A stretch of DNA of 64,000 nucleotides from Schmidtea polychroa (lineage: Eukaryota). The stretch is from positions 9,984,001 through 10,048,000 of the forward strand of contig CM097885.1 of NCBI GenBank assembly GCA_044892525.1, read 5' to 3'. Position numbers and translations under genes: made by a program. Below, piece after piece: positions 20,303 to 40,969 of this stretch (positions within the stretch are counted from its first letter, which is position 1; every line of letters begins with the position of its first letter). Below the pieces are notes generated by a model that saw only the letters and a list, made by a program, of their open reading frames with translations, was not told the origin of the DNA and did no database searches.

Positions 20303-20447
20303 TTTTATATTACTGCCATAAACCATTACATCCATCGTTGGATTTATATTAAAATAGTAAACGTTCAAACTATTGTAAAATATTGCATCTTCTATTTTTG
20401 TTACTTCTATAAGTGCATATAACTCATAACCTCCTGTCCAAATTCAT

Positions 20448-20704
20448 TTACCGGTTCGCCACCATCACCCGTTTCAATAATTTTTTTTTCATATTTATGT
20501 TTAAAAATAAAATAATTAATAAAATAAATAAAATAAAATAAAATAAAATAAAAATAAATAAAATAAAATATAAATCTAAGATACCCACACTATTATTTTC
20601 AAATTTTTAAAAAAAAAAAACTAACCACAGTTAGGATTTGAACCGCTATCCATTTGAACCACGGTGTCGGTCTAGCCCACTGCGCTATCTAGGTTTGGAT
20701 TTTT
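20448..20704. repeat. Outer Polinton left TIR (probably truncated)
   Basis: Near-identical reverse complement of 51039-51304, apart from homopolymer and (AAAAT)n length differences. Confidence 0.92.
20609..20695 (-). ncRNA. tRNA-like Pol III unit 1 (in TIR)
   Basis: A box TAGCGCAGTGG (20687-20677), B box GGTTCAAATCC (20644-20634), T12 terminator; no complete cloverleaf. Confidence 0.7.
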
Positions 20705-20940
20705 CTCATTTTTTAGACTATAAATAATCGATTCAAGTTCTTTAACTCTTTCCTGTAATTGTTTCATTTTCTTCAATCTTATATCAGCAACATCTACAGC
20801 CTTCATATAAAAATGTCGATACTTTTCATTATCTACCATCAACTCTTTGATGTATTCTAATGGTTCTTCTCTCTTCTTTTCATTCTCTTATGTTTAACTT
20901 CATTCAATTCATTTCTCATTCTTTCTTTTAAATCATCCAT
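20672..20940 (-). pseudogene. Small coiled-coil protein of the outer element (~89 aa, one frameshift)
   Basis: MDDLKERMRNELNEVKH / ENEKKREEPLEYIKELM...LQERVKELESII...SAVG* when one base is restored near 20888. Confidence 0.55.
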
Positions 20941-21097
20941 TTTTATAAATATTTTTTTTATTGGATATATTAATTTTTGGTAGTTAAAACGTTTTTGATC
21001 TTAAATTTCCAAGAGTTGCCGTTGACCAATCACCTTAAAAATTTGTACAAGTACTAAATCGAGTATGCTGATCAATATTTCGTTAAAAAAAAATTTG

Positions 21098-21178
21098 AAA
21101 AAAAATGACCGAAATGGGATTTGAACCCATTGGTATTGGCAATGCAGTCGAGTGCTATTACCACTAAGCTATACTCAA
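21098..21178 (-). ncRNA. tRNA-like Pol III unit 2 (5' half resembles tRNA-Cys)
   Basis: GAGTA-TAGCTTAGTGG-TAATAGCACTCGACTGCA...ATGGG-TTCAAAT-CCCAT...T8. Perfect T-arm; anticodon and acceptor stems do not pair. Confidence 0.7.
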
Positions 21179-21331
21179 TATGAAATAAGTTGTTAATGTG
21201 TGACTATTTATTGATGAAATTAATAATTAATTATTCATTTTCTCGACAACTACCACTCAGATCCATCTGAAAATTTAAATATATACTAAAATCAGTACAC
21301 TGAATCAGATTCCGTTGAAAAAAAAATATCG

Positions 21332-21413
21332 AAAAAAATTGACCAAAATCGAAAATTGAACCCGGTACTCCCGGTGATAAAATTGAAGCCTATTCCCACT
21401 CCGCTATAATGGC
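21332..21413 (-). ncRNA. tRNA-like Pol III unit 3
   Basis: A box TAGCGGAGTGG (21406-21396), degenerate B box GGTTCAATTTT, T7 terminator. 3' flank similar to unit 2 at a ~234-bp period. Confidence 0.55.
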
Positions 21414-21469
21414 TTACATAATATATTTAATTAATCCTATTTTGTGTGTGTAAATTTTAATATATAAAA

Positions 21470-22754
21470 ATGAATAATATAAAAATTCAAGAAAAAAATA
21501 AATTAAATCTTGATTATAATAAAGAATTTACTCATGAAATCAAGAAAAACGATGTACTTAAAATCTCCCCAACTTCAGGATCTATTGCAAACTTAAATCG
21601 TAGGGGTGATATAGTTTTTCAATCTCTTCAAACATCAAACCCTATAGATATTTGTAATGCCAAATTATATTATAAAATCGAATCAGAAATTGAAGCAAAC
21701 AAAGATATAACCCTAGAAAATAATTTCTTTCCAAATTTATTCTCCAACATGAGATTAAAACTAGGATCATCAGAAATTGAAACTGTTTTACATCCAGGAG
21801 TATATTCTACAATGTTAAATTTTTTTGACTGGTTGTGATTATAAAAATGAATATGGTGAATTAACAGGCTGGATTCCTGATGTTAATAAAGGAGATTTAG
21901 ATAAAGATGGTTTAGATATAAATTATGGTTACTATAAAAGAGCTGAACTTTATAAATCTAAAAAATTTGAAGGTTATTTTGAATTAAAACACTTGTTTGG
22001 ATTCCTTCAAAACTATAATCGTATACTTCATAATGTTTTTATAGAATTAGTTTGTAATAGAGTAGAAGGTGATAAAAGATTGTTCTATGGAGATAAGGAT
22101 ACAACAGCTAAATTAAAAATATCAACACTTGAATTGCATATACCTGAATGGACATTAAATCCACATTCTGAAATCAAACTCCTTGAAAGATTAAATTCCA
22201 ACAAGTCTATAAATGTAAATTATTTAAATAGAATCTGTAGTGAATTTAGTATGACAGAGGGTTCAACATATTCTATAAAGGTAGCAAATTTAGCATACCG
22301 ACCAAGATATATCTTGATTGGATTCGAAGAAGTAGATTCATCTTTCCAAAAAAATAACAACTTGTTTATTCAAAAGATTGGAGTTGATAATTTAAAAACA
22401 ATCCAAATTCAATTAAATAGTTCTTATTATCCAATAAATAGAATGGAATTTAATATTGAAAATAATGAAAACATATTCCCATATCTAAATTATATTGAAA
22501 CATGTTATGATTTCAAAGTTGAACCGCAATTAAGTTTAGAAGATTTCAAAAATTTATATTCTATATTTTGTATAAATGTTTCAGACCAAGATGATCGCCT
22601 AGCCATAAATAATGTTGATGTTACACTTCATGTAACAAAGGATTCTAATTTTAAAGCTAAAGTATATACATTAATATTAGAAGAAAAGAAAATAGAAATG
22701 AAATTATATGGTGGAAAGATTTCAATAATCGAAAATGTTAGGGGAGATTCTTAA
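21470..22754 (+). pseudogene. Major capsid protein (double jelly-roll) of the outer Polinton, frameshifted
   Basis: ORFs 21470-21838 and 21825-22754 join if one T is removed from T7 at 21820-21826. Motifs NLN..GDI.F, NNF...LFS, IE....PG..STM, RPRYILIGF, LNS.YYP. Confidence 0.88.
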
Positions 22755-22771: not shown

Positions 22772-23853
22772 ATGTCTCTCTATTGGAGATGTGAAAGTTG
22801 TAATTGTCAAGTTACAAGACATCATAAAGCAAGTCATCTAAAAACTAAAAAACATATAGGAGGCGACATGATTCCACGAGCCGGAGGCGACCTACAATCT
22901 TCAAAAGTGACATCTTCAATATTAAAACCTTTTACTACAGAAAAATATCCAGGTGAAAGACATTTATTTAAACACAACTATACCGGACCAGGAACAAGAT
23001 TAGATATTAGATTAGATGAAAATAATAATCCCAAACAAGGAGAAGAACCAATAAATAGAATCGACCAAGCAGCTTTAAAACATGATATTGCTTACAATTC
23101 AGAAGATCTTAGAGATAGACATGTTGCAGATGTTAATTTAATACATGATTTAAATAGTATGCAAAATCCATCAACCCAAGAAAAGATTCAAAGAGCTCTA
23201 GTTAAATTAGCAATGAAAGGTAAGATTTTCATAGGTGCTAGTTTACCAAGGATGGCAAAAGATGTTGCTAATAAAAAGATTATTGAACAAGCAGACGCTG
23301 AAAGATCCCTCGAGAATATATCCAAGACTAGTTTATTAACCCCAACAGAATCACAAATAAAATATGCCAACGAATTACACCATGAATTTAGAAAAAATAA
23401 AAAATATTTAAAAGTTCAAGTACATGAAAAAGATCAAACATGGTCTGCAGATTTAGTCTTTATGCCAACCAAATCATCAGACCCTGAAAAATATAAAATA
23501 ATTTTAACTGTAATAGATTTATATACAAGATTTGCCTTTGCAAGGTGTTTAGAAAATAAAACAGGATATTCCATTACAGAAGCATTTGAAAATATATTTG
23601 AAGAACATCAAAGAATTCCAAAATATTTATGGAGTGATAAAGGAACAGAATTTTATAACAAAGTTTTTACAAAGTTTTTAAATGAAAATGATATTAAATT
23701 ATATTCAACAGAAAACGAAGGAAAAGCAGTTGTGGTTGAAAGATTAAATAGAACATTAAAAAATAAAATGTGGAAATATTTTACGGCTATTGGAAAACAA
23801 AAATGGAACAATGAATTGTTACAAAAGATTGTAAATGAATATAATAATGATGT
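22772..23853 (+). pseudogene. Outer integrase, 5' part: zinc finger + parvovirus-like phospholipase A2 domain + retroviral-type DDE core
   Basis: CxxC..H..H; NYTGPGT..IDQAALKHDIAY..RHVAD; WSADL, LWSDKGTEF, VERLNRTLK. Interrupted after YNND by the inner element. Confidence 0.92.
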
Positions 23854-25571
23854 AGTAGTAGGATTGGAGCTCCCCAGATCAGGAGCTCCCCGCATCACAT
23901 ATACCCCCTCCCCCCCCCCCCCCGGGAAAAAAAAATTTTTTTTTTTAATTTTTTGTTTTAATTAATTGGCCTGGCGGGCTCACACTTTTTTTCATCCCAA
24001 AAATTAATGTTCCCACCAACGGATTTTATTGGATGATACCTCATCTTAAAGCCCAGTCCAAGACCTTTCGAATGAGCTATAGGTATCATATATATCTTTA
24101 ATAGTTTTAATGTTATTAACAATTGATGACCACCATCTTTTCAACGTTAAATTATTATTATTTTCCAAAATATTATTAATTGGCCTGGCGGGCTCACACT
24201 TATTTTCATCCCAAAAATTAATGTTCCCACCAACAGATTTTATTGACCGATACCTCATCTTAAAGCCCAGTCCAAGACCTTTCGAATGAGCTATAGGTAT
24301 CATATATATCTTTAATAGTTTTAATGTTATTAACAATTGATGACCACCATCTTTTCAACGTTAAATTATTATTATTTTCCAAAATATTATTAATTGGCCT
24401 GGCGGGCTCACACTTTTTTTCATCCCAAAAATTAATGTTCCCACCAACAGATTTTATTGACCGATACCTCATCTTAAAGCCCAGTCCAAGACCTTTCGAA
24501 TGAGCTATAGGTATCATATATATCTTTAATAGTTTTAATGTTATTAACATTTGATGACCACCATCTTTTCAACGTTAAATTATTATTATTATTCAAAATA
24601 TTATTAATTGGCCGGGCGGGGACATACTTTTTCTCATCCCAAAAATTAATGTTGCCATTATCCGAATTTATTAATCGATAGCTTATTTTGAAGCGTAGTC
24701 TAAGACCTTTCAATTGAGCCATAGAACGTATCATCATCATTAACATCGGCAAAGTTATTAAAGTTTTACCGAGACCATTTTTCAAGGTCATTTATTTTTC
24801 AAAATATTATTTTCAAGGTCAAGGTCAAGGTCATTTATTTTTTCAAGGTCATTTATTTTTTCAAGGTCATTTATTTTTTCAAGGTCATATTTTAAAATTT
24901 AAATGTACAGAGTTCCCGACAACGATAATTATTCAACGATAGCTCATTTTAAAGCCCAATGCAAGACCTTTCGATTGATTCATAGAAGGTATCATCATCA
25001 TTATTATTGACAAAGTTATTAACAATTGATGACCACCATCTTTTCAACGTTAAATTATTATTATTTTCCAAAATATTATTAATTGGCCGGGAGGGCCCCT
25101 ACTCTTTTTCATCCCAAAAATTAATGTTCCCATTATCCGAATTTATTGGACGATACCTCATCTTAAAGCTCAGTCCAAGACCTTTCGAATGAGCCATAGA
25201 AGGTATCATCATCATTAATATTAACAAAGAGAATGACTCACCCAATGACTCACCCAACGATGTCTAATATTTTTAGAACGATGACTCATCAAGGTCATTC
25301 CCAAGGTCATATGACTCATCAAGGTCAAGGTCATTTTTTTTAAATTTAATTTTTTGTTTTAATTAAGTAATCTTTTTATTTTCAAGGTCATTTAATTTTC
25401 AAGGTCATTTAATTTTCAAGGTCATTTAATTTTCAAGGTCATTTAATTTTCAAGGTCATTTAATTTTTCAAGGTCATTTAATTTTCAAGGTCATTTACTT
25501 TTCAAGGTCATTTAATTTTTCAAGATCATTTATTAAAATAATTATTATTTTCTAAGTTTTTAGTTTCTAAG

Positions 25572-25622
<51 letters not shown>

Positions 25623-25822
25623 CATATATACACCGAGTCTATCCGACAAGATATTCTGTCCCCCTATGGGTACTGCTCACAAATGTACTACTCACATTCA
25701 ACAAGTCACAAATGTACTACTCACACTCAACAAGTCACATGGGTACTGTTCACAAAGCTACTGGTAAAAATATTCAAGACAAAACTTTCTAAATTCTAAA
25801 TATTATTCTTTAAATATACACT
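23854..25822. repeat. Inner Polinton left TIR with 214-bp tandem units and TCAAGGTCA arrays
   Basis: Reverse complement of 39179-40969, with one more 214-bp unit than the right TIR. Confidence 0.95.
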
Positions 25823-26179
25823 AAAATTTATTAACACATTCACATTCATCATCTCCACAGTTCATAACATTTTCAACAACATGATCTATACAATCCCTAT
25901 ATACACACGGTTCAGTATCCGTAAATTCCTCCATAGGTTCATCAATTTCTTGAATGCTTTCCTCATCATCTTGAGTGTTTTCTTCATCTGTTTCATCAAA
26001 TTCCGAATCTTCACTCTCTGCTACCCAGCCGATATTTAATGAGTTTGTAACAGATAATATGTCCTCAATTTTCACACCAGATATTTCTGCTAACTTTTCC
26101 AATAAAAAGTTTATTATAAATTCTAAATATTAAATAATTCGATAATTAACTAATCATATTAACCTTTTTCTGTAGTCAT
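25821..26179 (-). CDS. Small acidic protein, two exons (predicted intron 26123-26163)
   Basis: ATG ACT ACA GAA AAA G|GT...TTTAG|AA gives MTTEKEFIINFLLEKLAEISG, in frame with ORF 25821-26102. The donor context is conserved in the relic at ~1141. Confidence 0.7.
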
Positions 26180-26275
26180 TATTAGTATTTTAAAACTATA
26201 GTATATATTTGTTTATAGAAAATATAGAATATAAGCGAAAACAAATATGACTAAATACATTTATTAAATACAACA

Positions 26276-26695
26276 TTAAAATAACTGTGAAAGTCTAGCA
26301 GACATAATTTTCCAAATTGGAGAATACACATCATTATTATCAACTTTATATCCTTGGATTGTAATTGTTATATACCAATTTTCGTTTTCTTTGAAACTGA
26401 TTTCATCAAAGGAATCATAAAATTTTGCATATCGGTTGTTGAAAAATGCATTTTGATTGCATGATAGATTCGTATTCAACCTTTTGAAAACATCATCTAT
26501 GGTTTTAATATCTAACATTGAAAGCGTGCCGGTTAAGAATTGAAATTGGGTAGGAATTAGCTTGATCGGTGACACCAATTTCATATTGATTTCTTCTTTT
26601 AAAAAATACATCTTGTAGTTGTGGAACATTTGAACAGGTTGTACAAGTTCTGGAACTACTTTTGGTTTTTCAGTGCTTGAAATTTTCTTGGTCAT
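26276..26695 (-). CDS. Hypothetical accessory protein (139 aa)
   Basis: Open ORF with upstream GGTATAAAAAC; a homologous relic at 362-952 supports that it is coding. Confidence 0.8.
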   Translation of the reverse strand: MTKKISSTEKPKVVPELVQPVQMFHNYKMYFLKEEINMKLVSPIKLIPTQFQFLTGTLSMLDIKTIDDVFKRLNTNLSCNQNAFFNNRYAKFYDSFDEISFKENENWYITITIQGYKVDNNDVYSPIWKIMSARLSQLF

Positions 26696-26803
26696 TGTGA
26701 ATTATGATTAAAATGAAATGGTACAGGGTTTTTATACCTATGACTATTGTTTATCATCCAATCAGATTGCAGTATGTTTTTGTTTTAATTGAATGATAAA
26801 TAA

Positions 26804-27268
26804 TTAATTAAGTGATAATAAAAAATCTAAAAATTCTTTTCCTTCAATTATTGATTTAATTTCAGATATGATATTATCAACTATACTTTTGTAATCAATA
26901 TTTTTTATTCCAAGAATTACTATCTTACCGCTAGCGAATATATTTACACACATAGGGTTATATTTTATATATCTCAAAGCTGGAAATAATTCTGGTTCAT
27001 AAAAGCATGGTATTAATTTAGCTAATTTATTTAAATTACAAGAAAAACCTATATCGGAAGTTACGGTTATCGATTGTATTTCTAAATCATAAACATTATA
27101 TTCACTAGCTTTGATTATTTCCTTACACCCCATAATTCTACATTTACCAGTTTTGAAATATATTATTGGATATTTATTACTTCTATTGATAAGTTGTTGT
27201 GGTTTCCCTATTGGAAATATCATTTTTGATACATCAGTTTTTGCCCTGTAATTTATATTTGAAAGCAT
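26804..27268 (-). CDS. TATA-binding-protein (TBP)-like protein
   Basis: Two TBP repeats: IYFKTGKCRIMG and IQSITVT...NLNKLA...YEPELFPALRY...NIFASGKIVILG. Confidence 0.92.
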   Translation of the reverse strand: MLSNINYRAKTDVSKMIFPIGKPQQLINRSNKYPIIYFKTGKCRIMGCKEIIKASEYNVYDLEIQSITVTSDIGFSCNLNKLAKLIPCFYEPELFPALRYIKYNPMCVNIFASGKIVILGIKNIDYKSIVDNIISEIKSIIEGKEFLDFLLSLN

Positions 27269-27373
27269 TTTAATGAAATAATTTTAAAAACTTTGATATA
27301 TATAGGTATTTAAAAACAGAGTTCATTTAAATTATCAATATAAACAATAATTATATAGTTTAAATTTTAAAAA

Positions 27374-28012
27374 ATGGAATTACGAAATGATGCAGTATAC
27401 CAAATCGTTGGTCCAAGTGGTAGCGGGAAAACTTTATTTGTTTGTAAATTACTAAAATCAAATTTGTTTAAAACAAAATTCAACAATATTTATTGGCATA
27501 GGGGCGCCGACGAAGAACACGGATTGACGCAATCAAGTTTCTGTCAGTTGAAAAACATGAAAATAGTAAAGGGCTTTGATAAAAACTGGTCAAGTCGTTT
27601 GAAGAAAGATGATGTCATCATTATCGATGATTTGTATCAAGAAGCCAATAAAGAAAAGGACTTTAATAATTTATTCACAAAAATCAGCAGACATGTTGGT
27701 GTAACAGTTATTTTCATAACACAAAATCTATTTCATCAAGGTGGTGCACATCGAACACGTAATTTAAATGTACAATATTTAGTTATTTTCAAGAATCCTA
27801 GAGATGCAACTGTCATTGATTTTCTTGGACGACAAGCATACCCTAATAACCGTAATTTTCTTATCAGTGCATTTCAAGATGCCACGAAAATACCGCATGG
27901 GTATATATTTCTCGATTTCACACAACAATGCCCTGATGATATACGGGTAAAAACAGATATTTTCAACCCAAAAGGTGCCATGGTATATAAACAAAGTTCA
28001 AAACAAAGTTGA
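27374..28012 (+). CDS. Genome-packaging ATPase (A32/FtsK-like)
   Basis: Walker A GPSGSGKT, Walker B IIIDD, LFTKISRH, FITQNLF. Confidence 0.95.
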   Translation: MELRNDAVYQIVGPSGSGKTLFVCKLLKSNLFKTKFNNIYWHRGADEEHGLTQSSFCQLKNMKIVKGFDKNWSSRLKKDDVIIIDDLYQEANKEKDFNNLFTKISRHVGVTVIFITQNLFHQGGAHRTRNLNVQYLVIFKNPRDATVIDFLGRQAYPNNRNFLISAFQDATKIPHGYIFLDFTQQCPDDIRVKTDIFNPKGAMVYKQSSKQS

Positions 28013-28025
28013 AAACATATAAATC

Positions 28026-28520
28026 ATGTTTTCAAAAACAAGGATATCGGGTAAAAAACAACCAAAAGTTCCACCAACAACTAGTTATACTCCATCTAAA
28101 GATCTTATTACAGAAAATTTTCCTGCAATGAATCTTATTTCGAAAAATCCTAAACCTAAACCTAAAAGTAAAACCACTAAGAAAGTAAAAGTTGTTAAAA
28201 ATCATCGGAGTTTCCCGTTTTTCAATACATTGTTAAAGGCACCAAGTATGAAAAGAAACAGTATTTTGCAATCATTTCCAAATTATGTTGTCGATGATTT
28301 ACTCGATATTATACTTAAAGTAGTCAAAGGCAAGATTAAAATCAGTAAATCTAAAAAGCAATTATTGAGTAAACATAGGAAACCTTTGCTATCATTAGTA
28401 AATAATAAAAATCGTCAACAAATGAGAAAAATTATATATAAACAACAAGGGGGATTTATCGGTGCATTGATACCTTTAGCAATATCATTATTAGGTGGAA
28501 TAATAGGAAGTCGATCATAA
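28026..28520 (+). CDS. Basic virion core-like protein with a C-terminal hydrophobic/amphipathic helix
   Basis: Lys-rich; ends QQGG|FIGALIPLAISLLGGII, a GG protease-site-like motif typical of Polinton core proteins. Confidence 0.7.
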   Translation: MFSKTRISGKKQPKVPPTTSYTPSKDLITENFPAMNLISKNPKPKPKSKTTKKVKVVKNHRSFPFFNTLLKAPSMKRNSILQSFPNYVVDDLLDIILKVVKGKIKISKSKKQLLSKHRKPLLSLVNNKNRQQMRKIIYKQQGGFIGALIPLAISLLGGIIGSRS

Positions 28521-28523
28521 ACA

Positions 28524-28751
28524 ATGGGTGCTAATCCTTCATTACCAGACATTAAATTTAATATTAAATCTTCTTGTTGTAATGGAGAAGATTTGGACGA
28601 ACCCGGAAGACGAAGCCGGTTTTGGTGGAGTGGCAAAATTAAGGAAAAGAGTTCCGAATTCGAAAAAGGAAACACAGAAGTGGTTATCAGACCAGCTTGC
28701 GTACAGTTTGAACAAACCAATGCGGAAACGATTCCCAACAAGAGCATATAA
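28524..28751 (+). CDS. Putative overprinted myristoylated microprotein (75 aa)
   Basis: MGANPS (MGxxxS) plus a CC pair. First ATG after the upstream stop; overlaps the integrase 5' end in another frame. Confidence 0.4.
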   Translation: MGANPSLPDIKFNIKSSCCNGEDLDEPGRRSRFWWSGKIKEKSSEFEKGNTEVVIRPACVQFEQTNAETIPNKSI

Positions 28752-29640
28752 AACATATGGAATAAATGATTTATGGCAAATGGATTTGATGGAGATGATA
28801 CCCTATTCGAAAATTAACAATGGGTATAAATATATTTTAACATGTATTGATGTATTCAGTCGGTTTGCCCGAGCAATACCCGTCAAGGCAAAATCTGCAG
28901 ATGAAATGTCCAAAGCTGTTAATCATTTATTTAAAGATGGACATCCTAAAAACTTGCAAACTGATTTAGGTATTAATATTATTATTATTAATATTATTAT
29001 TATTATTATTTTAGGTAAAGAATTCTACAACAGTAAAGTCAAGCAAATCCTCAATAAATTGAAAATAAACCATTACTCAGTACATTCTCAATACAAAGCT
29101 GCTCATGTTGAAAGATTTAACCGAACTTTGAGAGATAGATTAAAGAAATTATTCGTGCATCAAGGTAATAAAAAATGGGTATTGGTTTTACCAAAAATAA
29201 TAACCAGTTATAATCACTCATCACATCAAGGACTGAGTGGATTAAGGCCGATTGATATCACGTCAAAAACAATCTATTCTAAAAAACCTGAAAAAATTAC
29301 AAAACCGAAATATAAAGTAGGTGACCATGTTAGAATTAGTAAAATTAGTGCATCACCATTTATTAAAAATTTCGATACAAATTGGAGTGATGAAGTCTTT
29401 GTAATTTCAAAAATAAATACTAAACAGAATCCTGTAATGTATGTCATCAAAGATAATGATAACAATATTGTACAAGGAAAATTTTATGAGCAGGAATTAC
29501 AAGTTATTCCTCCCCCAAAAGTATTTAGAATTCAGAAGATTTTGAAAACTAAAAATAAAGGCAAGGATAAACAATACTATGTCAAATGGCATGGTTATCA
29601 AAACCCATCATGGATATCAGAAAAGGATCTAGTAAAGTGA
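28582..29640 (+). CDS. Retroviral-type integrase with C-terminal chromodomain; 45-bp intron 28970-29014
   Basis: WQMDL, QTDLG^KEF after intron removal, VERFNRTL, YNHS.H, PKYKVGDHVRISK, YYVKWHGY..PSWI. Confidence 0.95.
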   Translation: MEKIWTNPEDEAGFGGVAKLRKRVPNSKKETQKWLSDQLAYSLNKPMRKRFPTRAYKTYGINDLWQMDLMEMIPYSKINNGYKYILTCIDVFSRFARAIPVKAKSADEMSKAVNHLFKDGHPKNLQTDLGINIIIINIIIIIILGKEFYNSKVKQILNKLKINHYSVHSQYKAAHVERFNRTLRDRLKKLFVHQGNKKWVLVLPKIITSYNHSSHQGLSGLRPIDITSKTIYSKKPEKITKPKYKVGDHVRISKISASPFIKNFDTNWSDEVFVISKINTKQNPVMYVIKDNDNNIVQGKFYEQELQVIPPPKVFRIQKILKTKNKGKDKQYYVKWHGYQNPSWISEKDLVK

Positions 29641-30653
29641 ATTTTTATACTATTTTACCAAGCAATAGTTGCCCGCTTATTCATCCAGATAATCAAGCCA
29701 GTAAATTCATGGTCAATCTCCAGAATCCGATTTCTTTAAATGGGGACTGGGAAGTTGCACTGCAAGATTTTACATTCGTGTACAATACATTCCCATTTTA
29801 TAGTCAATGTAAGATTGATTTCAAAAGGAATGCTATGAAAACATGTAGTGGTATCTTTATTATCAGTAATTATGATAAAACATATCATATTCCGAATCAA
29901 ATATTAGATCAGCACTGCTCTATGTTTTACAAGGATGGATTAAATATCAGTTGTGATTTTAAACCATTTACAATAACATTCGAATATATTGAAGATGCCA
30001 GACGAATGGGTTGCAATAAGTTGAAAAATGAAGTTATGGAAACAGAATATTTATTACGCTTTGATCTATTTGAAGCAAACAGTGTAATGAGAGAAGAAAT
30101 CAAAATATCAGTGTCGTATAATAATGAAGTTGAAGAATCATTCACCTTCGCTGACGAATTATATATTGATAAACTTGATGTGTTACTTAAATATTTAAAG
30201 TATAATTGTTCACACATATTTAAAAGTTTGGACATTGTGAAAGATTTGTTATTTACCTTCAGTTTGAATGATGACATTTGCGAAGTTACATTTGATAAAA
30301 ATTTGACAAATACACTTGGATTAGAGAAGCAGCAATATCGGGAAAAATCGGCTGGTATACGTAAACCAAGAATACTTGAACATCATCAACAAATGTTCAT
30401 ATATACTAATATTATTGAGCCTATAATAGTTGGTGATTCCAGTGTTCCTCTATTGAAATCGGTGTGGATTGGAAAATATGAACATGATGAAGTTGTCAAT
30501 ATAAATATAGATAATCCCATGTATTTACCAATTTCAAGCTCATGTATAAACAATATAGAAATAAATATTCGTGACGATAGTGGAAAACTTATAAACTTCC
30601 CAAAAGACTCAAAAACTCATTTGACACTACATTTTCGTAAAGTAGATGGCTAA
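29586..30653 (+). CDS. Minor capsid (penton-like) protein; start codon uncertain
   Basis: FYTILPSNS..HPDN, WEVAL, MFIYTNIIEP.IVGD...PLL, IEINIRDDSG, LTLHFR. Confidence 0.9.
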   Translation: MAWLSKPIMDIRKGSSKVNFYTILPSNSCPLIHPDNQASKFMVNLQNPISLNGDWEVALQDFTFVYNTFPFYSQCKIDFKRNAMKTCSGIFIISNYDKTYHIPNQILDQHCSMFYKDGLNISCDFKPFTITFEYIEDARRMGCNKLKNEVMETEYLLRFDLFEANSVMREEIKISVSYNNEVEESFTFADELYIDKLDVLLKYLKYNCSHIFKSLDIVKDLLFTFSLNDDICEVTFDKNLTNTLGLEKQQYREKSAGIRKPRILEHHQQMFIYTNIIEPIIVGDSSVPLLKSVWIGKYEHDEVVNINIDNPMYLPISSSCINNIEINIRDDSGKLINFPKDSKTHLTLHFRKVDG

Positions 30654-31008
30654 TTCCGATATTATTAGTATGTATAGTGATAGCCAATCTGGTGGTGAAT
30701 TACCATATTTTATTGGTAAACAGTATGGATCAGGTTGGTTAAAAACAATAGGGAGATTTGCACTTCCCATTCTTAAACGTATTGGTAGTTTTGGCATGAA
30801 AACTGCAAAAGATGTGATTATGAATGAACAGAAAATATTACCATCCCTAAAAACAAATGCTTTAGCTGAGTTAGGGAAGGTTCTACCTGGAGTTGCTGGT
30901 ATGTTTCAAAAAGATACACCTCCAGTCCCAGCTCCAAAACGTAAAGGGCATGGAATATCGCGTATAAACAAACGAATGAAAGGACATGGAACTATATTTG
31001 CAAAATGA
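30646..31008 (+). CDS. Small basic core-protein precursor
   Basis: QSGG.LPYF.G.QYGSG..RFALPILK and repeated KGHG motifs; lies directly upstream of the MCP. Confidence 0.75.
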   Translation: MANSDIISMYSDSQSGGELPYFIGKQYGSGWLKTIGRFALPILKRIGSFGMKTAKDVIMNEQKILPSLKTNALAELGKVLPGVAGMFQKDTPPVPAPKRKGHGISRINKRMKGHGTIFAK

Positions 31009-32228
31009 TTTGTGGTAAATCCGAATTATGTATATTTGATAGACCGTCGCCCCAGGCAGTAATAGAATTTGGTGCCTTTGAGGAAGTTTTTCCTATGAAT
31101 TCAATTACTGATAGTAGAAATGATATCGAGTTTTATATTAATGGTTCGCAAACTGAATATTTAGATTTGAACGATACTTTATTGACTGTTCAGATCAAGG
31201 TTGTAGATAAAGATAGAAAGGTTTTGGATGCCAATGCTGATGTATTACCAAACAATTTCATGTTTCATACTCTGTTTAAAGATGCAGTGTTGGGATTTAA
31301 TAATATCAAGATTGAGGGTGGAAATAATACATTCATTCACAAGGCTTTGATAGAAACTATTTTAAATTACAATTCAGATACTAAAAATACCTGTCTTACA
31401 CCTATGGGTTATGCAGCAGCAGATGATGAAAGAAAAAAGTGGGTTAAAGGCTCAAAATCATTCACTATGTGCTCATCATTACAACTTGATTTTATGGATC
31501 AACCGAAATATTTACTACCGGGAGTTAATATACATATTAGACTGAAAAGATCTGATTCTGCATTGTCTCTTACTAGTGCAACTGGTGCACCAATATGTCA
31601 ATTAGTTGATGCAAAATTATTGGTGAGAAGAGTTCGAGTAGACCCGTCAGTATTAGCTGGTCATCAATTGGGGCTTAATTCAAAACATGCAATTTATCCT
31701 TTAAAAACAAAGGAAATTGTACAATTTGCTATTGCTAAAGGTGCTTCATCATTCTATAAAGAACAAATATTTGGTGACAGAAGAATGCCTAATTTTATTC
31801 TGGTAACATTTCAAAGTGAAACGCAATATAATGGATCGTATACTGCTTCCAGCTCAATTTTCAAAAATTTTGGTGTTACTTCATTGACTTTATCGAAAAA
31901 TACTGATTATAGAGAAACATATACTCAAGATTTCGAGAATGATAATTACTGTGCGACATATATGCAGAGTATTGTTAGAAATCTGGGTTATTTAGATAAA
32001 AACTTGAATTGCGGAATAACTCTTGAAGAATTTAAAAGCAAATACCCATTTTTCACATTTGTTCTAGCTCCCGATTTTGATTTAAATCAGAGTCAATTAC
32101 CACAAAACGGGAATTTACGACTGGATATAAAGTTTGCAAAGGCCATTACTGAACCAGTACATGTTATAATATATGGAGTATTTGAAAATGAAGTTCAAAT
32201 TACTGCAAATAGAACCGTGCTAGTATAA
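31005..32228 (+). CDS. Major capsid protein (hexon-like double jelly-roll)
   Basis: KSEL.IF..P..Q, IEFYI.G...EYLDL, QPKYLLPGV, L.VRRV, GNLRLDIKF. Confidence 0.93.
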   Translation: MICGKSELCIFDRPSPQAVIEFGAFEEVFPMNSITDSRNDIEFYINGSQTEYLDLNDTLLTVQIKVVDKDRKVLDANADVLPNNFMFHTLFKDAVLGFNNIKIEGGNNTFIHKALIETILNYNSDTKNTCLTPMGYAAADDERKKWVKGSKSFTMCSSLQLDFMDQPKYLLPGVNIHIRLKRSDSALSLTSATGAPICQLVDAKLLVRRVRVDPSVLAGHQLGLNSKHAIYPLKTKEIVQFAIAKGASSFYKEQIFGDRRMPNFILVTFQSETQYNGSYTASSSIFKNFGVTSLTLSKNTDYRETYTQDFENDNYCATYMQSIVRNLGYLDKNLNCGITLEEFKSKYPFFTFVLAPDFDLNQSQLPQNGNLRLDIKFAKAITEPVHVIIYGVFENEVQITANRTVLV

Positions 32229-32640
32229 ATGTATACAGAAACACCAAAAAGTTGTCATGGAGTAAGTTTTTCAATACTGTTTAATTTATTAAAGTAGTTC
32301 TGTTCAGGTCAATAGAATTGGAAAACAGATATTGGGAAATGAATTTGTAGGAGTTTTTCCTCTCGATAAAATCCCATATTTGAGCAATAATCAAGCCATA
32401 ATCGTCAATACTCAATCGTCTCATCTTGGTGGAGAACATTGGATTGCTATATATGTGAAACCTAGTAATATATTCGTGTTCGATCCTATGGGTTTCTATT
32501 ACCCTGCTTTGTTGGTATCAAAACTACAAACAATGGGGAAACCTATTGTATATAATAAAACAATGTTTCAAAATCCCTTGACACAAACATGCGGTCAACA
32601 TTGTTTAGCTTGGTTGTTGTATAAAAAATTTGATGTTTAA
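32229..32640 (+). CDS. Adenain-like cysteine protease; predicted intron 32262-32307
   Basis: FVGVFP.D, GEHWIA, FDPMG, QNP..QTCGQHC. ATG exon 32229-32261 with a GTAAGT donor joins in frame at TTCAG|32308. Confidence 0.88.
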
Positions 32641-32657
32641 TAAATGTATCCTTTCCT

Positions 32658-33135
<478 letters not shown>

Positions 33136-33218
33136 AATATCCAAATAAAGACTACACAATCATTGTGCATGCACAAAGTCATGACTAACAAAGATGTGTA
33201 ATCCCATTTGATACCATT

Positions 33219-33304
33219 TGATTGGCTGATAGAGGAAAAAGTATTCAGGAATGTGTCTTAATTCTGATTGGTTGAGACATGGAAATATTCATGTTCTATA
33301 TAAA
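33219..33304 (+). promoter_or_regulatory. Pol II promoter: two inverted CCAAT boxes plus a TATA box
   Basis: TGATTGG at ~33219 and ~33265, TATATAAA at 33297-33304, ATG at 33365. Confidence 0.65.
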
Positions 33305-33364
33305 CATTGACAAATTCCAAATTCATCACAATTTATCAAAATTTTCAATTTCTGATTTTTCAAA

Positions 33365-33908
33365 ATGTCTAACAATAACAACAACATATTAAGAAGTCTA
33401 TTGACTACCGGTAATTTTATTATTTATTTATTTATTATATTTTATTCTTTATTTTTTAGATGTGTTCGATTGGTATCAAGTTACTGAGGACGAAAGAATT
33501 TTGAATGTTGATAGGATTTTCGGTAAATTTAAATATTTTATTTTTTATGAAATTATTATTTTATTTAGAACCTATTATAATTAGCGACGATGATGATGTC
33601 GTATTTATTGGGCAAACTAATGCCCCAGTTTCCTGTAATGTTTTTAATGAACAAAGTAAATTTATTTTATTTTAGTATATTATTTTTTAAAAATCATTTT
33701 AGTGTTTAATGTTGACATGGACGCTGAAATCGATGTTCCAATTAATAATGATTCTATTGAGGAGATGAATAATGCACTGACTTCTATCGATGAGCTGAAT
33801 TATGTGGATAATACAATCGAGGAGCTTGTTAATGTGGATAATGCCCTCACTTCTATTGAGGAGGTTGCTGATAATGAATCAGATTCCGACATGGAATCAC
33901 GATGTTAG
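33365..33908 (+). CDS. Four-exon acidic protein (~133 aa) with SIM-like motifs
   Basis: Exons 33365-33410, 33460-33522, 33569-33655, 33703-33908. Three GT..AG phase-1 introns of 49, 46 and 47 bp give a continuous frame. Confidence 0.8.
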
Positions 33909-34062
33909 TATTTATTTATTTTTATATATTTATTTTTTTTTTAAAAACCTTGTAAATTTCTTAAATACTTTTTAAACATTTTCTTTAAAAACTTATTTAT
34001 AAAAACTTATTATGAAAATGAAGAAAATATTATGTTGAAATTGAAAATGTTATGTTGACTAA

Positions 34063-34166
34063 ATGATGAAAATATTATGATGAAGAAAATGATGAAAATA
34101 TTATGATGAAGAAAATGATGAAAATATTATGATGAAGAAAATGATGAAAATATTATGATGAAGAAA
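34063..34166. repeat. 4 x 26-bp tandem repeat
   Basis: ATGATGAAAATATTATGATGAAGAAA x4. Confidence 0.9.
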
Positions 34167-34292
34167 ATGTTTAAAAAGTATTTAAGAAACAATAGTTTTA
34201 AAATATTCCTTGTAGTTTGCAATGAGCAACTACATTAGTTAAAATAATAATAATAATAATAATAATATTAAAAATAGTAATAAAAATATATC

Positions 34293-34683
34293 TTGTAGTC
34301 TGCAGTGAGCATGCAGCTACATATCTCTTTTATCATGATTGCCCCAATAAATGTAGTCTGCAGTGAGCATGCAGCTACATCAAACTAATTATTTATTACG
34401 TAATACATACCCTTTATTAAATGTGTCTAAATGCAGCTGCGTCAAACTAAATATTTATTACGTAATACATACCCTTTATTAAATGTGTCTAAATGCAGCT
34501 GCGTCAAACTAAATATTTATTACGTAATACATACCCTTTATTAAATGTGTCTAAATGCAGCTGCAACAAACTATTTATTACGTAATAATTAACCCTTATT
34601 AAATATAGTCTGCATGCAGCTGCATCAACTATTTATTATGTAATAATTATAATCTTTAAATGTAATCTGCATGCAGCTGCATC
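34293..34683. repeat. Array of ~56-62-bp units with palindromes TATTACGTAATA and GCAGCTGC
   Basis: 62-bp period at 34381, 34443, 34505, plus degenerate units on both sides. Confidence 0.88.
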
Positions 34684-34869
34684 AATAATGATAATAATGA
34701 TAATAATAATAATAATAATAATAAAATCACACATTTATAGTTTACAAGACTTTATTAATATAAATACAATTTCATGATTAATATTAATTGATAAATATAA
34801 TTAACAGGCAAATTATATCCACATTACTGCCAGGCTTCAACTGGTCACTCAAATTTATGTCACAAAGTG

Positions 34870-37800
34870 ATGAAAAAATATTATGGTCGTAAATTTTATG
34901 GCATCAAGTACTACATATGCCCAATATGCGAGACTTCCCATAGCATTAAATATTTAGAGTTTTACAGTATACATAAATCCCATTTAAATCAGTTCTCTTT
35001 AAATAAAAAGGATTTATTTAACAAATTGCGAAATACCGCAAAACCTATAATTAAAACTAATGTAAATAATACAAAACCTGTAAATAATAATACAAAACCT
35101 GTAAATAATAATACAAAACCTGTAAATAATATTACAAAACCTGTAATTAATAATAATACAAAACCTGTAAATAATATTACAAAACCTGTAAATAATAATA
35201 CAAAACATGTAAATAATATTACAAAACCTGTAAATAATAATAATACAAAACCTGTAAATAATATTACAAAACCTGTAAATAATAATACAAAACATGTAAA
35301 TAATATTACAAAACCTCTAATTAATAATGTTATTAATGTAAATAATAATTTAAAAAGACCTGCTGTTAGTATTGGGTCTGATGCTCCCTCTAAAATTAAT
35401 AAATTAGAACAAATAACTGTGGTTAATAATATTCAAGTAGGCGGTTCAGTCGATATTGACGATGAACCTGAAATCGAAATTGATTTTAAGGGGGTTCGAA
35501 AGAATCTAAGATTTAATGTAGAAAAGGATAACATCATTCAAATATCCATAACCGATAAAATCGTTAATAAGTTAAAACATGAAATAATCAGAATGGGGTC
35601 GGTGAAAATACAATTCTCTGTATTGATTCAATTTGAAAAAGATGGTGAAATTAAAGATAATTTCTTCTCGAATAGGGCAGAGGCTTTTTCAGATAGTTTT
35701 CTAAGTGAGGGGGTTCACAAATTAAATAATAAAATAGAAAAATTCACATATTTGGGTAGTGGATGGCGGGTTGTTAAAATCAAAGAAATAGATTTTATAT
35801 TAACAAAATTTACACATATGAATAGGCTAGCTGGACATAGTTACATCCCCACCCCATCATCTTTAAAATCTAAAAATGCAATAGTAAATGTTAAAAACAC
35901 CGATGATATGTGCTTTATATATAGTATTTTAGCACTTTTAAAACGTAATGTCGTACATATAAATAGAAATAGAGTTAGTTCCTATCAAAATTATCTTGAC
36001 GAGTTAAATTTTGACCCCATTTCAGACTGTCCAATGAAACTATGTGATATTCCTAAATTCGAGATGAAAAATAAGGATTTAAATTTAGCAATAAATGTTT
36101 TAACTTATAGAACAACCCCTGCTAAGCCTTTTGAAAATATAGTTGACGATAATTATATTCCACATCATCCTCAATTAGATATTATTCACCGATCTAAGGT
36201 TATAGGTGGTGAACCCATATATTTACTTTTATTGGAAGACGGTGATAATTTCCATTATACTGCAGTTTTTAACTTACAAAGACTAATGAATTGTCGCTCT
36301 AGCAGTGAATGTGACGTTAGACTTCAAGTAAACTGGTGCCCCCATTGTCTTAACGGATTTAGACATAAAAATGCATTTGATATTCATGTCGCCTTATGCA
36401 TTAAAAACCAGATAGGTACTACTTTATACACGCTACCCAATGATAAAAATTTAATTTTTCAAAATTATGCGAAAACCATAACCCCACCATTCGTGATATA
36501 TGCAGACTTTGAATCAATTTTACCGGGGGATATAATACACCATCAAAAGCATTTGCCAATAACAGCAGGTTTATTATTAATAAATAATTATAATAACTCT
36601 AAATTTTATTATGAGTTTGTTGGGGATGATTGCATCTTATCTTTCTTGCGTAAGGTGGAGGAAATTGCTATGACAATTGTCCTGCCATATTACGAAATTA
36701 ATGGGAAAAAGCCCATGCAAACCTTGTCTTTCACTGAAGAGCGGGCCTTTCGTGATTCCAGAACCTGCTACCTTTGTAAAAAATTCATTAAGAATAGAGT
36801 TAGGGATCATTGTCACTTTTCAGGTAAGTATCTTGGTGCTGCCTGTAGGAAATGTAATGTTTCTCGACGAATTCAGAAACAGTTACCTGTGGTTTTTCAC
36901 AATTTGAGGGGGTATGATCTTCATCATATTTTGAAGTATGGTTTGAATAATTTTCCTTCTTGGGAATTAAATATTATTCCGACCACTACTGAGAAATTCA
37001 TCTCTCTTATCGCGTACATTAACAAATTGTCTGTTCGTTTTATTGACAGCATGCAGTTTGTTAATTCATCTTTAGCAAAAGCAGTTAAGACTCTTTCCGA
37101 TCTGCCTTTAACTTCTTCTGTTTTCGATGGCGCAATTGTTCGAGCCAAAGGTATCTTTCCTTATGACTTTGCCACATCTCTTGAGGTTCTGGAATCGACT
37201 CTTGAATTGCCTCCTATTTGGGATTCTGTGTCTAATGATGAATATGCATTAGCCCAAGTTATTTGGACTCAGCAAAACTGCAACAACATGTTAGATTACA
37301 TGTTAATCTACCTTAAATTAGACGTGTTTCTCCTCGCAGACTATTTTCAACAATTCCGTGAAAAGGCCATTGCTTACAATGGTCTTGAGCCTCTTAATTT
37401 CTATGGCATTCCCGGTATGTCTTGGGCCTCTGCGCTTATGACATTAACGGAACCCATTGAACTTCTGCAGGACATGGAAATGTTTAATTTCTATGAAGGA
37501 GGGATACGGGGTGGGTTAACATTTGTTAACAAACATTATGTTGCAAGTTCTGAAGACACAGAACTCTTGTATATTGATATTAATAACTTGTATGGTTGGG
37601 CCTTAAGCCAAAATCTGCCTTATGCTGACTTTGTTTGGGTGTATGATGATCTTGATTCTGTCTTGAATGAATGTATGAATGCTGATATCGATAACCTTCC
37701 ATATGGCTATACTATGGAGGTAGATATCGATATACCTGTTTGTTTGCATGACTTTCTGAATGATTTTCCTCTTGCTCCGGAAAAGATGTGCCCGCCAAAT

Positions 37801-38949: not shown

Positions 38950-39178
38950 ACTGTGATAAATGTTAATATATCTTTAATAAAACGTTTCTTCTACATTGTT
39001 GTATTATCTAAAATTTTTATTGAAAACTTGTTATAGTTTTCACATTTCTTACAAATGTTAAACACTTGTATAAATATATTTATTAATATTGATAAAGTTT
39101 TTATAAATCATGTTTAACTATTGAAAGAAATTTTTATTTGAAATGTATGTATGAGCTCACCACTACATATATGAGTTG

Positions 39179-39350
39179 AGTGTACATTTAAAGTATAATA
39201 TTTAGAATTTAGAAAGTTTTACCTTGAATATTTTTACCAGTACCTTTGTGAACAATAACCATGTGACTTGTTGAGTGTGAGTAGTACCCTTGCTAGCAAT
39301 ACCCATAGGGAGACAGAATATCTTGTCGGATAGATTATATATATATATAT

Positions 39351-39444
<94 letters not shown>

Positions 39445-40969
39445 CTTAGAAACTAAAAACTTAGAAAATAATAATTATTTTAATAAATGATCTTGAAAAA
39501 TTAAATGACCTTGAAAAGTAAATGACCTTGAAAATTAAATGACCTTGAAAAATTAAATGACCTTGAAAATTAAATGAGCTTGAAAATTAAATGACCTTGA
39601 AAATTAAATGACCTTGAAAATTAAATGACCTTGAAAATAAAAAGATTACTTAATTAAAACAAAAAATTAAATTAAAAAAAAAATGACCTTGACCTTGATG
39701 AGTCATATGACCTTGGGAATGACCTTGATGAGTCATCGTTCTAAAAATATTAGACATCGTTGGGTGAGTCATTGGGTGAGTCATTCTCTTTGTTAATATT
39801 AATGATGATGATACCTTCTATGGCTCATTCGAAAGGTCTTGGACTGAGCTTTAAGATGAGGTATCGTCCAATAAATTCGGATAATGGGAACATTAATTTT
39901 TGGGATGAAAAAGAGTAGGGGCCCTCCCGGCCAATTAATAATATTTTGGAAAATAATAATAATTTAACGTTGAAAAGATGGTGGTCATCAATTGTTAATA
40001 ACTTTGTCAATAATAATGATGATGATACCTTCTATGAATCAATCGAAAGGTCTTGCATTGGGCTTTAAAATGAGCTATCGTTGAATAATTATCGTTGTCG
40101 GGAACTCTGTACATTTAAATTTTAAAATATGACCTTGAAAAAATAAATGACCTTGAAAAAATAAATGACCTTGAAAAAATAAATGACCTTGAAAAAATAA
40201 ATGACCTTGACCTTGACCTTGAAAATAATATTTTGAAAAATAAATGACCTTGAAAAATGGTCTCGGTAAAACTTTAATAACTTTGCCGATGTTAATGATG
40301 ATGATACCTTCTATGGCTCAATTGAAAGGTCTTAGACTACGCTTCAAAATAAGCTATCGATTAATAAATTCGGATAATGGCAACATTAATTTTTGGGATG
40401 AGAAAAAGTATGTCCCCGCCCGGCCAATTAATAATATTTTGAATAATAATAATAATTTAACGTTGAAAAGATGGTGGTCATCAATTGTTAATAACATTAA
40501 AACTATTAAAGATATATATGATACCTATAGCTCATTCGAAAGGTCTTGGACTGGGCTTTAAGATGAGGTATCGGTCAATAAAATCTGTTGGTGGGAACAT
40601 TAATTTTTGGGATGAAAAAAAGTGTGAGCCCGCCAGGCCAATTAATAATATTTTGGAAAATAATAATAATTTAACGTTGAAAAGATGGTGGTCATCAATT
40701 GTTAATAACATTAAAACTATTAAAGATATATATGATACCTATAGCTCATTCGAAAGGTCTTGGACTGGGCTTTAAGATGAGGTATCATCCAATAAAATCC
40801 GTTGGTGGGAACATTAATTTTTGGGATGAAAAAAAGTGTGAGCCCGCCAGGCCAATTAATTAAAACAAAAAATTAAAAAAAAAAATTTTTTTTTCCCGGG
40901 GGGGGGGGGGGGGAGGGGGTATATGTGATGCGGGGAGCTCCTGATCTGGGGAGCTCCAATCCTACTACT
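39179..40969. repeat. Inner Polinton right TIR
   Basis: Reverse complement of the left TIR; ends CCTACTACT. Confidence 0.95.

What the first reader, a model, noticed from the sequence alone, without database searches (positions are those of the whole stretch)
20609..21413. Array of tRNA-like Pol III transcription units at a Polinton end (possible VA-RNA analogue)
Seen: three outward-pointing ~75-85 nt units (20609-20695, 21098-21178, 21332-21413), plus a copy of unit 1 in the right TIR. Each has an A box TAGCNNAGTGG, a B box (GGTTCAAATCC, degenerate in unit 3) at tRNA spacing and an oligo-T terminator. The interiors differ and none folds into a full cloverleaf; units 2 and 3 are a diverged ~234-bp duplication. 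Established: adenoviruses, relatives of Polintons, make Pol III VA RNAs that counter host defence, and tRNA-type promoters can act as chromatin insulators. Inference: element-encoded small RNAs (RNAi or tRNA decoys) or TFIIIC boundary elements. I am not aware of this being described for Polintons.
Basis: partly seen in the sequence, partly recalled or inferred. Interest (0 to 1): 0.85.

Follow-up and report, generated by a model that had tools for sequence, protein, structure and literature searches.

The report
Polinton ends carry Pol III cassette
A virus-like jumping element present in about 1,500 copies in a flatworm genome carries at its ends several worn-down copies of a host tRNA gene that keep their RNA polymerase III signals, plus a longer, tightly folded RNA gene with the same signals, so it probably makes its own small RNAs, as adenoviruses do.

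Summary
Observation confirmed. The three units are real, outward-facing and tied to Polinton ends, not a free SINE: all 59 other copies sampled lie in Polinton sequence. Unit 2's 5' half is host tRNA-Cys(GCA); units 1-3 look like paralogues. They are poor VA-RNA analogues: units 1 and 3 do not fold better than shuffles, unit 1 keeps only its boxes and T-run, and unit 3 has lost B-box C61. It has A and B boxes at exact tRNA spacing, ~360 nt of strong folding, a strand-specific pre-miRNA-like hairpin and ~3,000 genomic copies. It also has by far the highest contig depth in three runs guessed to be RNA (a hint only). A sister family (capsid 92% identical) lacks the cassette and has two copies, so the cassette is accessory. 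Best reading: U0 is the RNA product and units 1-3 are promoter/boundary DNA. Pol III transcription and function are untested. The scan noted this family before (e1-7879910) and similar genes in Polintons of two other genomes; six paper searches showed nothing.

The parts
20609..20695 (-). Unit 1 (U1), left TIR: A box 20687-20677, internal 16-nt duplication of a B-box-like word, B box 20644-20634, T12 terminator; no stable fold
   Evidence: 2,954 exact-pattern copies genome-wide
21098..21178 (-). Unit 2 (U2): 5' half from host tRNA-Cys(GCA); anticodon stem broken; own 6-bp T stem; A box 21171-21161, B box 21127-21117, T8
   Evidence: fold z -2.8 to -3.1; about 1,290 exact copies (2,280 minus 986 host tRNA-Cys; lower bound)
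21332..21413 (-). Unit 3 (U3): A box 21406-21396, degenerate B box at 21362 (C61 lost), internal T4 runs, T7; head-to-head with the capsid gene, ~55 nt apart
   Evidence: 2,092 copies with up to 1 mismatch
51040..51135 (+). U1 copy in the right TIR, head-to-head with the zinc-finger ORF and pPolB side
51281..51647 (+). U0, fourth candidate Pol III unit: A-box-like 51291-51301, B box 51334-51344 (offset 43), internal T4 51372-51375, multi-hairpin body, A-loop hairpin 51580-51634, T4/T5 end 51635-51647
   Evidence: 3,020 copies of its 5' motif. Start and end are inferred from the boxes and T-runs
51486..51546 (+). 61-nt pre-miRNA-like hairpin in U0, folds only on the U0 strand (G-U pairs)
   Evidence: -24.4 kcal/mol, z -5.5 on +; -3.3, z +0.6 on -; 8 of 25 pairs vary, all on one side, all stay paired in 18 copies
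20448..20471 (-). Stump of the left-end U0 (5' end and A box only); the element is truncated here
20672..20940 (-). Small charged ORF between U2 and U1, ending inside U1; frameshifted in this copy, open for 89 aa in L012; deleted in 7 of 28 aligned copies that keep the units
21470..22754 (+). Major capsid protein gene (double jelly roll, PF21738), split into two ORFs in this copy
22772..23895 (+). PLA2-domain + rve integrase gene, interrupted by the nested element
23896..40925 (.). Nested Polinton of another family (own TIRs, TBP-domain ORF, ATPase, integrase); no A-box or A+B hit inside it
41401..42213 (-). Packaging ATPase (Pox_A32) of the outer element
46649..50014 (-). Protein-primed DNA polymerase B (DNA_pol_B_2) of the outer element
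51724..51974 (+). Outermost TIR module, itself bounded by inverted repeats, ending ...CACTACT; differs between subfamilies

Best explanation
One Polinton lineage captured a host tRNA-Cys gene and built from it an outward-facing RNA polymerase III cassette at its ends, with two kinds of part. (1) U1-U3 are mainly promoter DNA: TFIIIC/TFIIIB bound to their A and B boxes keep the TIR and the head-to-head capsid and polymerase promoters open against piRNA-guided heterochromatin; their short U-tailed RNAs are largely by-products. (2) U0 uses the same kind of internal promoter to make a ~100-360-nt folded RNA that acts in trans as a Dicer/Argonaute-pathway decoy or a miRNA source, the job of adenovirus VA RNA. 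SHOWN: anatomy, copy numbers, tRNA-Cys origin of U2, restriction to Polinton ends, strand-specific folding of U0, absence of the cassette from a two-copy sister family. HINTED: that U0 is an abundant RNA. INFERRED: Pol III as the polymerase, the boundary role, the decoy/miRNA role. My odds: U1/U2 are working Pol III templates 0.8; U0 is transcribed 0.75; U0 made by Pol III 0.6; the whole two-part mechanism 0.4.
For: Boxes, spacing and T-runs far above chance. U2 matches host tRNA-Cys over a 31-nt stretch with 3 substitutions and 1 extra base. In 33 U1 copies the first 10 B-box bases, the A box (apart from its purine position and one change at a free position) and the T-run are kept, while leader, interior and trailer vary (read by eye): promoter kept, RNA shape not. 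U0's B box stays within GWTCRANNC in 17 of 18 copies, and its common polymorphism is at a free position. U0 folds at z -9.4/-6.6 on its own strand against -4.4/-4.6 on the other; its hairpin is strand-specific and its variation keeps pairing. Summed contig depth in RNA-guessed runs X16/X20/X21: U0 core bins 3,637-8,273 / 1,303-20,939 / 0-65; U1 bins 158-171 / 476-588 / 5-7; capsid bins 224-996 / 0-509 / 0-30. The cassette-less sister family has 3 TIR hits against ~3,000 for U0 and U1. PMC8532177 (passages): planarian Polintons are repressed by SMEDWI-2/piRNA at chromatin level. PMC11346459 (passages): tRNA genes and TFIIIC sites have proposed insulator roles.
Against: No raw RNA reads, no strand, no 5' or 3' ends: one search used assembled contigs of runs whose RNA status is a guess, the tool says contig depth cannot rank parts of a locus, no silent control stretch was laid, and GC bias could favour U0. 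The deepest part of U0 lies beyond an internal T4 that could end Pol III, so it may be a Pol II or read-through product. U0's A box has one mismatch, and the pattern that found it was relaxed after I had seen the sequence. No two-sided covariation in the U0 stems tested (0 of 82 pairs; 183 of 500 shuffles reach the observed score, where two of five helices were mis-registered by my typing). Copies are 92-97% identical, so conservation says little about selection. The copy-number contrast rests on one sister family. U2 does fold better than shuffles (z about -3), which a promoter-only role does not explain. U3 is almost invariant despite a broken B box, as hitchhiking would predict.
Confidence: 0.4

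Rival explanations
1. One reading: U1-U3 themselves make functional 75-90-nt tRNA-mimic RNAs (decoys for La, tRNA-processing or PIWI/Argonaute factors, or sources of tRNA-fragment-like RNAs), as a multi-gene cluster like MHV68 TMERs.
For: All have terminators right after tRNA length; U2 keeps a D arm, a GCA loop, a 6-bp T stem of its own sequence and a new middle hairpin (z -2.8 to -3.1); the units are repeatedly duplicated in tandem (L061, L063, L067, L020, L100, L106); standard RNA-seq would lose such short RNAs.
Against: U1 and U3 have no significant fold; U1's ends vary independently; U3 lacks C61 and has internal T4 runs; U2/U3 are absent from 5 of 6 left ends in one sample and from 10 of 11 cassette-bearing ends in another.
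Confidence: 0.2
2. Neutral cargo: a captured tRNA-Cys gene and a SINE-like folded piece hitchhike in a recently expanded family; any transcription is incidental.
For: A sister family with a 92%-identical capsid has complete ends without the cassette, so it is not needed in cis; copies are young; U3 is broken; no homologue was found outside this genome.
Against: Boxes are kept while the sequence between and around them turned over; the cassette is kept across subfamilies whose outermost ends differ completely; the U0 hairpin varies only in pair-keeping ways; copy-number contrast.
Confidence: 0.2
3. All four units act only as DNA: TFIIIC-bound boundaries or open-chromatin elements; U0's RNA is a by-product or a piRNA-precursor transcript.
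For: Position at both ends and outward orientation; head-to-head with inward genes; Polintons are piRNA targets (PMC8532177).
Against: A boundary needs no 61-nt hairpin that folds on one strand only or 360 nt of strong folding.
Confidence: 0.12
4. U0's hairpins are single-stranded DNA structures for protein-primed replication or integration of the element, and its boxes are chance.
For: It lies in the TIR; the A-loop hairpin shows a two-sided change (6 of 18 copies), as a DNA palindrome kept by conversion would.
Against: G-U-dependent, strand-specific stem; exact tRNA box spacing; absent from a complete sister element; contig-depth peak.
Confidence: 0.08

Closest known systems
Adenovirus VA RNA I/II (PMC7589676, passages read)
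   Same: Intragenic box A/box B, oligo-U terminator, proposed tRNA origin, hairpin structure that can feed or block Dicer; carried by a relative with pPolB and jelly-roll capsid. U0 fits the layout.
   Different: No sequence match (Rfam); U0 is up to ~360 nt with A-runs, against ~160 nt for VA RNA (recalled); sits in TIRs of an integrated element in ~3,000 copies; U1-U3 lack the folded body; PKR/OAS targets do not apply to a flatworm (recalled).
Murine gammaherpesvirus 68 TMERs and EBV EBERs (PMC8223928, passages)
   Same: Cluster of viral tRNA-like type-2 Pol III genes near a genome end, linked to hairpins.
   Different: TMERs join a tRNA-like head and pre-miRNA hairpins in one transcript (name, layout recalled); here T7-T13 terminators and a T-rich spacer separate the tRNA-like units from the hairpin RNA, which has its own boxes.
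Bovine leukaemia virus Pol III miRNA cluster (PMC12498455, search listing and start of abstract only)
   Same: Integrated virus with a cluster of type-2 Pol III units that yield hairpins.
   Different: Retrovirus; each short unit is itself a pre-miRNA (recalled); U1-U3 are not.
TRIMp3 elements Helenus, Cassandra, Ajax (PMC10886601, passages)
   Same: Mobile elements with a tRNA- or 5S-derived Pol III promoter kept in their terminal repeats.
   Different: Non-autonomous LTR retroelements that need the promoter to make their genome RNA; a Polinton replicates as DNA, and these units point outward and terminate at once.
tDNA/TFIIIC insulators and ETC sites (PMC11346459, passages)
   Same: A/B-box DNA with a possible chromatin-organising role.
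   Different: Known as host loci; not shown here, and not known to me as transposon-borne.
Host tRNA-Cys(GCA) (L137)
   Same: 5' half of U2, box spacing.
   Different: Acceptor and anticodon stems broken; below the Rfam cut-off; no ARAGORN call.

Membership tests
Polinton/Maverick (host element) | pPolB, rve integrase, packaging ATPase, jelly-roll capsid | tested here: met
Polinton/Maverick (host element) | Long TIRs with AGTAGT-type termini | tested here: met
   (left end truncated in this copy)
Polinton/Maverick (host element) | 6-bp target-site duplication | tested here: inconclusive
   left terminus lost in this copy; not checked in other copies
Functional tRNA gene | Full cloverleaf, score above cut-off | tested here: not met
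tRNA-derived SINE | Dispersed copies independent of another element, with body and tail | tested here: not met
   29 of 29 U2, 15 of 15 U1 and 15 of 15 U3 sampled sites other than this copy lie in Polinton sequence; U0 and U1 counts about 1:1
Type-2 Pol III gene | A box, B box at tRNA spacing, oligo-T end | tested here: met
   U1, U2 exact; U0 with one A-box mismatch and an internal T4; U3 fails the B box
Type-2 Pol III gene | Pol III/TFIIIC occupancy and Pol III-dependent transcript | not testable with these tools
   only assembled contigs of RNA-guessed runs
Adenovirus VA RNA (family membership) | Match to the Rfam VA model | tested here: not met
   no hit at gathering score in the window, none at E<=10 over 20400-21600 or E<=3 over 40800-52100
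VA-like function | Strongly folded RNA | tested here: met
   met for U0; not met for U1 and U3, weak for U2
VA-like function | High abundance | tested here: inconclusive
   depth peak on U0 in contigs only
VA-like function | Blocks or feeds Dicer or another host defence | not testable with these tools
   no functional data
TMER (tRNA-miRNA) genes | tRNA-like head and hairpin in one transcript | tested here: not met
   T12-T13 and a T-rich spacer separate U1 from U0
tDNA/TFIIIC insulator | TFIIIC binding and barrier activity | not testable with these tools
   needs ChIP and a reporter assay

The most novel reading that the evidence does not exclude
Animal Polintons encode their own Pol III counter-silencing RNAs. 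In this lineage a tRNA-derived cassette makes an abundant folded RNA (U0) that disarms or reprograms host small-RNA defence in trans while tRNA-like promoters insulate the element, and this acquisition drove its expansion to ~1,500 copies. VA-type RNAs would then be a recurring invention across the Polinton-adenovirus lineage, caught here in the making.
Probability: 0.25. Interest if true: 0.92.

Novelty: new variant of a known kind. Interest (0 to 1): 0.74.

Why it matters
Polintons are known by their proteins; how they withstand piRNA/RNAi silencing is open. A Pol III cassette with a traceable tRNA-Cys origin would give a concrete, testable counter-defence and a visible case of the proposed tRNA-to-VA-RNA path. 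It has a natural control in the same genome, a cassette-less sister family with two copies. It would also mean that several thousand extra Pol III/TFIIIC sites in this genome come from one transposon family (U0+U1+U2 about 7,000 copies, against 986 genes for host tRNA-Cys). The host group allows RNAi and has public small-RNA data, so the first tests need only existing reads.

Tried and rejected
Free-SINE origin: rejected. Functional tRNA: rejected. My first reading as 2,280 unit-2 copies was wrong, because the pattern also matches 986 host tRNA-Cys genes. The generic A/B/T count (8,284 forward) includes host tRNA arrays and is not used as a copy number. A recalled likeness of U1's 3' end to tRNA-Trp was not tested. 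Relatives elsewhere: viral contigs gave nothing for the capsid, ATPase, a capsid alignment or the U0 motif. Fifteen metagenome contigs with 31-52% identical capsids have other gene orders in the two read, show no tRNA-like Rfam hit and no B box in the 5 of 15 searched; they are uninformative because no terminus was recognised in them. Sequencing-run search: no RNA holder listed. Run X24 laid nothing, and the low contig depth over U2/U3 (0-17) is not used as evidence on expression. An Rfam mir-754 search of the genome found nothing and its control found nothing. Right ends of L092 and L095 could not be read (other insertions). Covariation test: not significant, two helices mis-typed. Whole-genome scripting, per-column statistics and trees could not be run, so U1 variation is read by eye. 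Paper searches for Pol III units in Polintons showed no such paper in their listings. The adintovirus preprint 10.1101/697771 has 0 mentions of VA RNA or polymerase III in its main text (supplements not seen). The library lacks most subscription papers and Repbase entries.

Full report
SETTING. The window lies on the largest contig of a 781-Mb, AT-rich genome with four large contigs. The best named hit of a neighbouring host gene is a flatworm protein, and the runs holding the stretch include freshwater sediments; I infer a planarian-like host. The finding sits in a Polinton with a jelly-roll capsid, PLA2+integrase, A32 ATPase, pPolB and a zinc-finger ORF. A second Polinton of another family is nested in it (23896-40925). 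The inverted repeat visible in the window is 20448-20719 / 51024-51304. Aligning 17 other copies shows that the TIR continues to a ...CACTACT end at 51974 and that this copy has lost ~670 nt on the left.

OBSERVATION. The three units and the right-TIR copy are there. The A-box motif occurs 4 times in 64 kb (0.14 expected), always in a unit. The A+B pattern occurs 3 times and never in 100 shuffles. Spacing equals that of the host tRNA-Cys gene within one base. Unit 3 lacks B-box C61 and contains T4 runs. ARAGORN finds nothing; Rfam gives unit 2 a sub-threshold tRNA score.

ORIGIN. The host has 986 matches to a tRNA-Cys(GCA) pattern, the first 100 all in one tandem array. Unit 2 equals that gene from just before the A box through the anticodon (31 nt, 3 substitutions, 1 extra base). 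It then diverges except for the B box, with a 6-bp T stem of different sequence. All three units share the same altered D-loop word after the A box, and units 2 and 3 are one 234-243-nt repeat: they align, and L061 holds a U3-U2-U2-U2 run in which U2 bodies carry U3's downstream flank. I infer one captured tRNA-Cys gene, duplicated and eroded.

NOT A SINE. Of the first 30 genome-order hits of the unit-2 pattern (one is this copy), 27 have the TIR motif within 1.5 kb and the other 3 carry unit 3; 28 were aligned (L038 and this copy's own locus left out) and all are Polinton left ends. Fifteen U1 hits away from an exact U2 all continue into TIR sequence: 9 right ends, 5 left ends without U2/U3, 1 with a shortened U2. 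Fifteen U3 hits without an exact U2 are all Polinton sequence. Counts: U1 2,954, U0 3,020, U2 about 1,290 exact, U3 2,092 with one mismatch. That suggests about 1,500 elements; the U3 excess is only partly explained by point changes in U2.

WHAT IS KEPT. U1 is in both TIRs and persists across subfamilies whose outermost ends are unrelated. U2/U3 are accessory: in 14 of 15 capsid loci aligned (L101 left out as a near duplicate of L100), 10 have U1 alone (one without its A box), 1 has all three, and 3 have no cassette next to the capsid gene. Across 33 U1 copies the boxes, the T-run and the AT-rich flanks hold, while leader, interior and trailer vary, the two ends independently (by eye). U1 and U3 do not fold better than shuffles; U2 does, modestly. 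This is the pattern of a promoter under constraint rather than of a structured RNA; raised mutation in transcribed tRNA-type genes (recalled) would add to it. A sister family with a 92%-identical capsid has no unit at the left end of L092 or at the right end of L098, and its TIR motif has 3 hits genome-wide. The cassette is therefore not required in cis.

THE FOURTH UNIT. An earlier scan note (e1-7879910) mentioned a folded neighbour, which sent me to the TIR stretch outward of U1. It starts with an A-box-like word (one mismatch) and has a B box of the GGATCGA type 43 nt later. The pattern, relaxed after I saw the sequence, has 1 hit in the window and 0 in 100 shuffles, and recurs in most TIR-containing loci. 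The ~365-nt stretch folds at z -6.6 (window) and -9.4 (L041) on the U1 strand, less on the other strand. A 61-nt hairpin of pre-miRNA size folds at -24.4 kcal/mol on that strand and -3.3 on the other. In 18 copies 8 of its 25 pairs vary, always on one side and always staying paired. No two-sided change supports these stems and the shuffle control is not beaten. An internal T4 at +92 may end a short form; the final T4/T5 follows an A-loop hairpin. In this window only the right-hand U0 is whole.

EXPRESSION HINT. No holder is on record as RNA. Four of the listed runs, all guessed to be RNA, were laid as contigs on a complete left end, L041. In three (two studies) summed depth peaks on U0: up to 8,273, 20,939 and 65, against 171, 588 and 7 on U1 and at most 996, 509 and 30 on the capsid gene; the fourth laid nothing. 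In X20 parts of the capsid gene have no cover while U0 is deep, which DNA contamination would not easily give. Loose A-runs extend from U0's internal A-tract (7 contigs in X20), as oligo(dT) priming or tailing of an RNA of that strand would. Contigs give no strand, ends or reliable level, and no silent control was laid, so this is a hint.

MECHANISM. I favour a two-part cassette (0.4): promoter-like units that hold TFIIIC/Pol III at the element ends, head-to-head with the capsid gene (U3, ~55 nt) and the zinc-finger/pPolB side (U1, ~100 nt), and one structured RNA gene acting in trans on small-RNA defence. The pressure exists in a planarian: Polintons are silenced by SMEDWI-2/piRNAs with H3K9me3 (PMC8532177, passages). 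Rivals: U1-U3 as functional tRNA mimics (0.2), neutral cargo (0.2), DNA-only boundaries (0.12), replication hairpins (0.08).

COMPARISON AND NOVELTY. It works, if at all, like adenovirus VA RNA, gammaherpesvirus TMERs/EBERs or the BLV cluster, but is a member of none (no Rfam match; different layout). Helenus and Cassandra show tRNA/5S promoters in terminal repeats of retroelements, for another purpose. Six targeted searches listed no paper on Pol III units in Polintons, and the adintovirus preprint does not mention them. Within this scan the family was noted before, and unverified notes report Pol III hairpin genes in Polintons of two other genomes; I could not check these and do not count them as support. 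Verdict: real feature, new variant of a known kind, function unproven; interest 0.74.

Noticed in passing
window 26804-27268 (-): The nested Polinton encodes a TBP-domain protein (PF00352, E 2e-15); also noted by an earlier scan report (e1-7879962).
   Followed up: no
L078:3810-3889 (-): A metagenome Polinton-like contig (capsid 50% identical) has an 80-nt hairpin matching Rfam mir-754 at 48.6 bits (E 4.8e-7, cut-off 84), between two converging ORFs. mir-754 is a planarian family by my recall; a second possible Polinton-borne hairpin RNA.
   Followed up: partly
window 51580-51634: Hairpin with a variable poly-A loop at U0's 3' end shows a two-sided G-C to A-T change in 6 of 18 copies.
   Followed up: partly
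window 51724-51974; L092, L093, L095, L096, L102, L105, L147: The outermost ~250 nt of each TIR is a module bounded by its own inverted repeats and is exchanged between subfamilies that share the inner TIR.
   Followed up: partly
G000:C1:269.25 Mb; C4:76.66 Mb; C140, C333: Host tRNA genes lie in long single-isoacceptor tandem arrays (Cys 281-nt period, 986 matches; Lys 424 nt; Arg 278 nt).
   Followed up: no
L061:980-1800: An isolated U3-U2-U2-U2 tandem (243-nt period) cut off from the rest of the element.
   Followed up: partly
genome-wide: U3 (2,092) outnumbers exact U2 (~1,290) and the estimated number of left ends (~1,500), although the two are about 1:1 in the first 55 Mb of C1; tandem arrays elsewhere are possible. 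Scan note e1-7879912 (a satellite sharing 290 bp with the element) may bear on this; not checked.
   Followed up: partly
L031:1190-1460, L032:1190-1460, L151: Another element with short terminal repeats has inserted between U3 and U2 in three copies near the contig start; L160 has a Polinton end module inserted in U3.
   Followed up: no
window 5853-8420 (-): Single open reading frame for an ionotropic glutamate receptor (855 aa).
   Followed up: no
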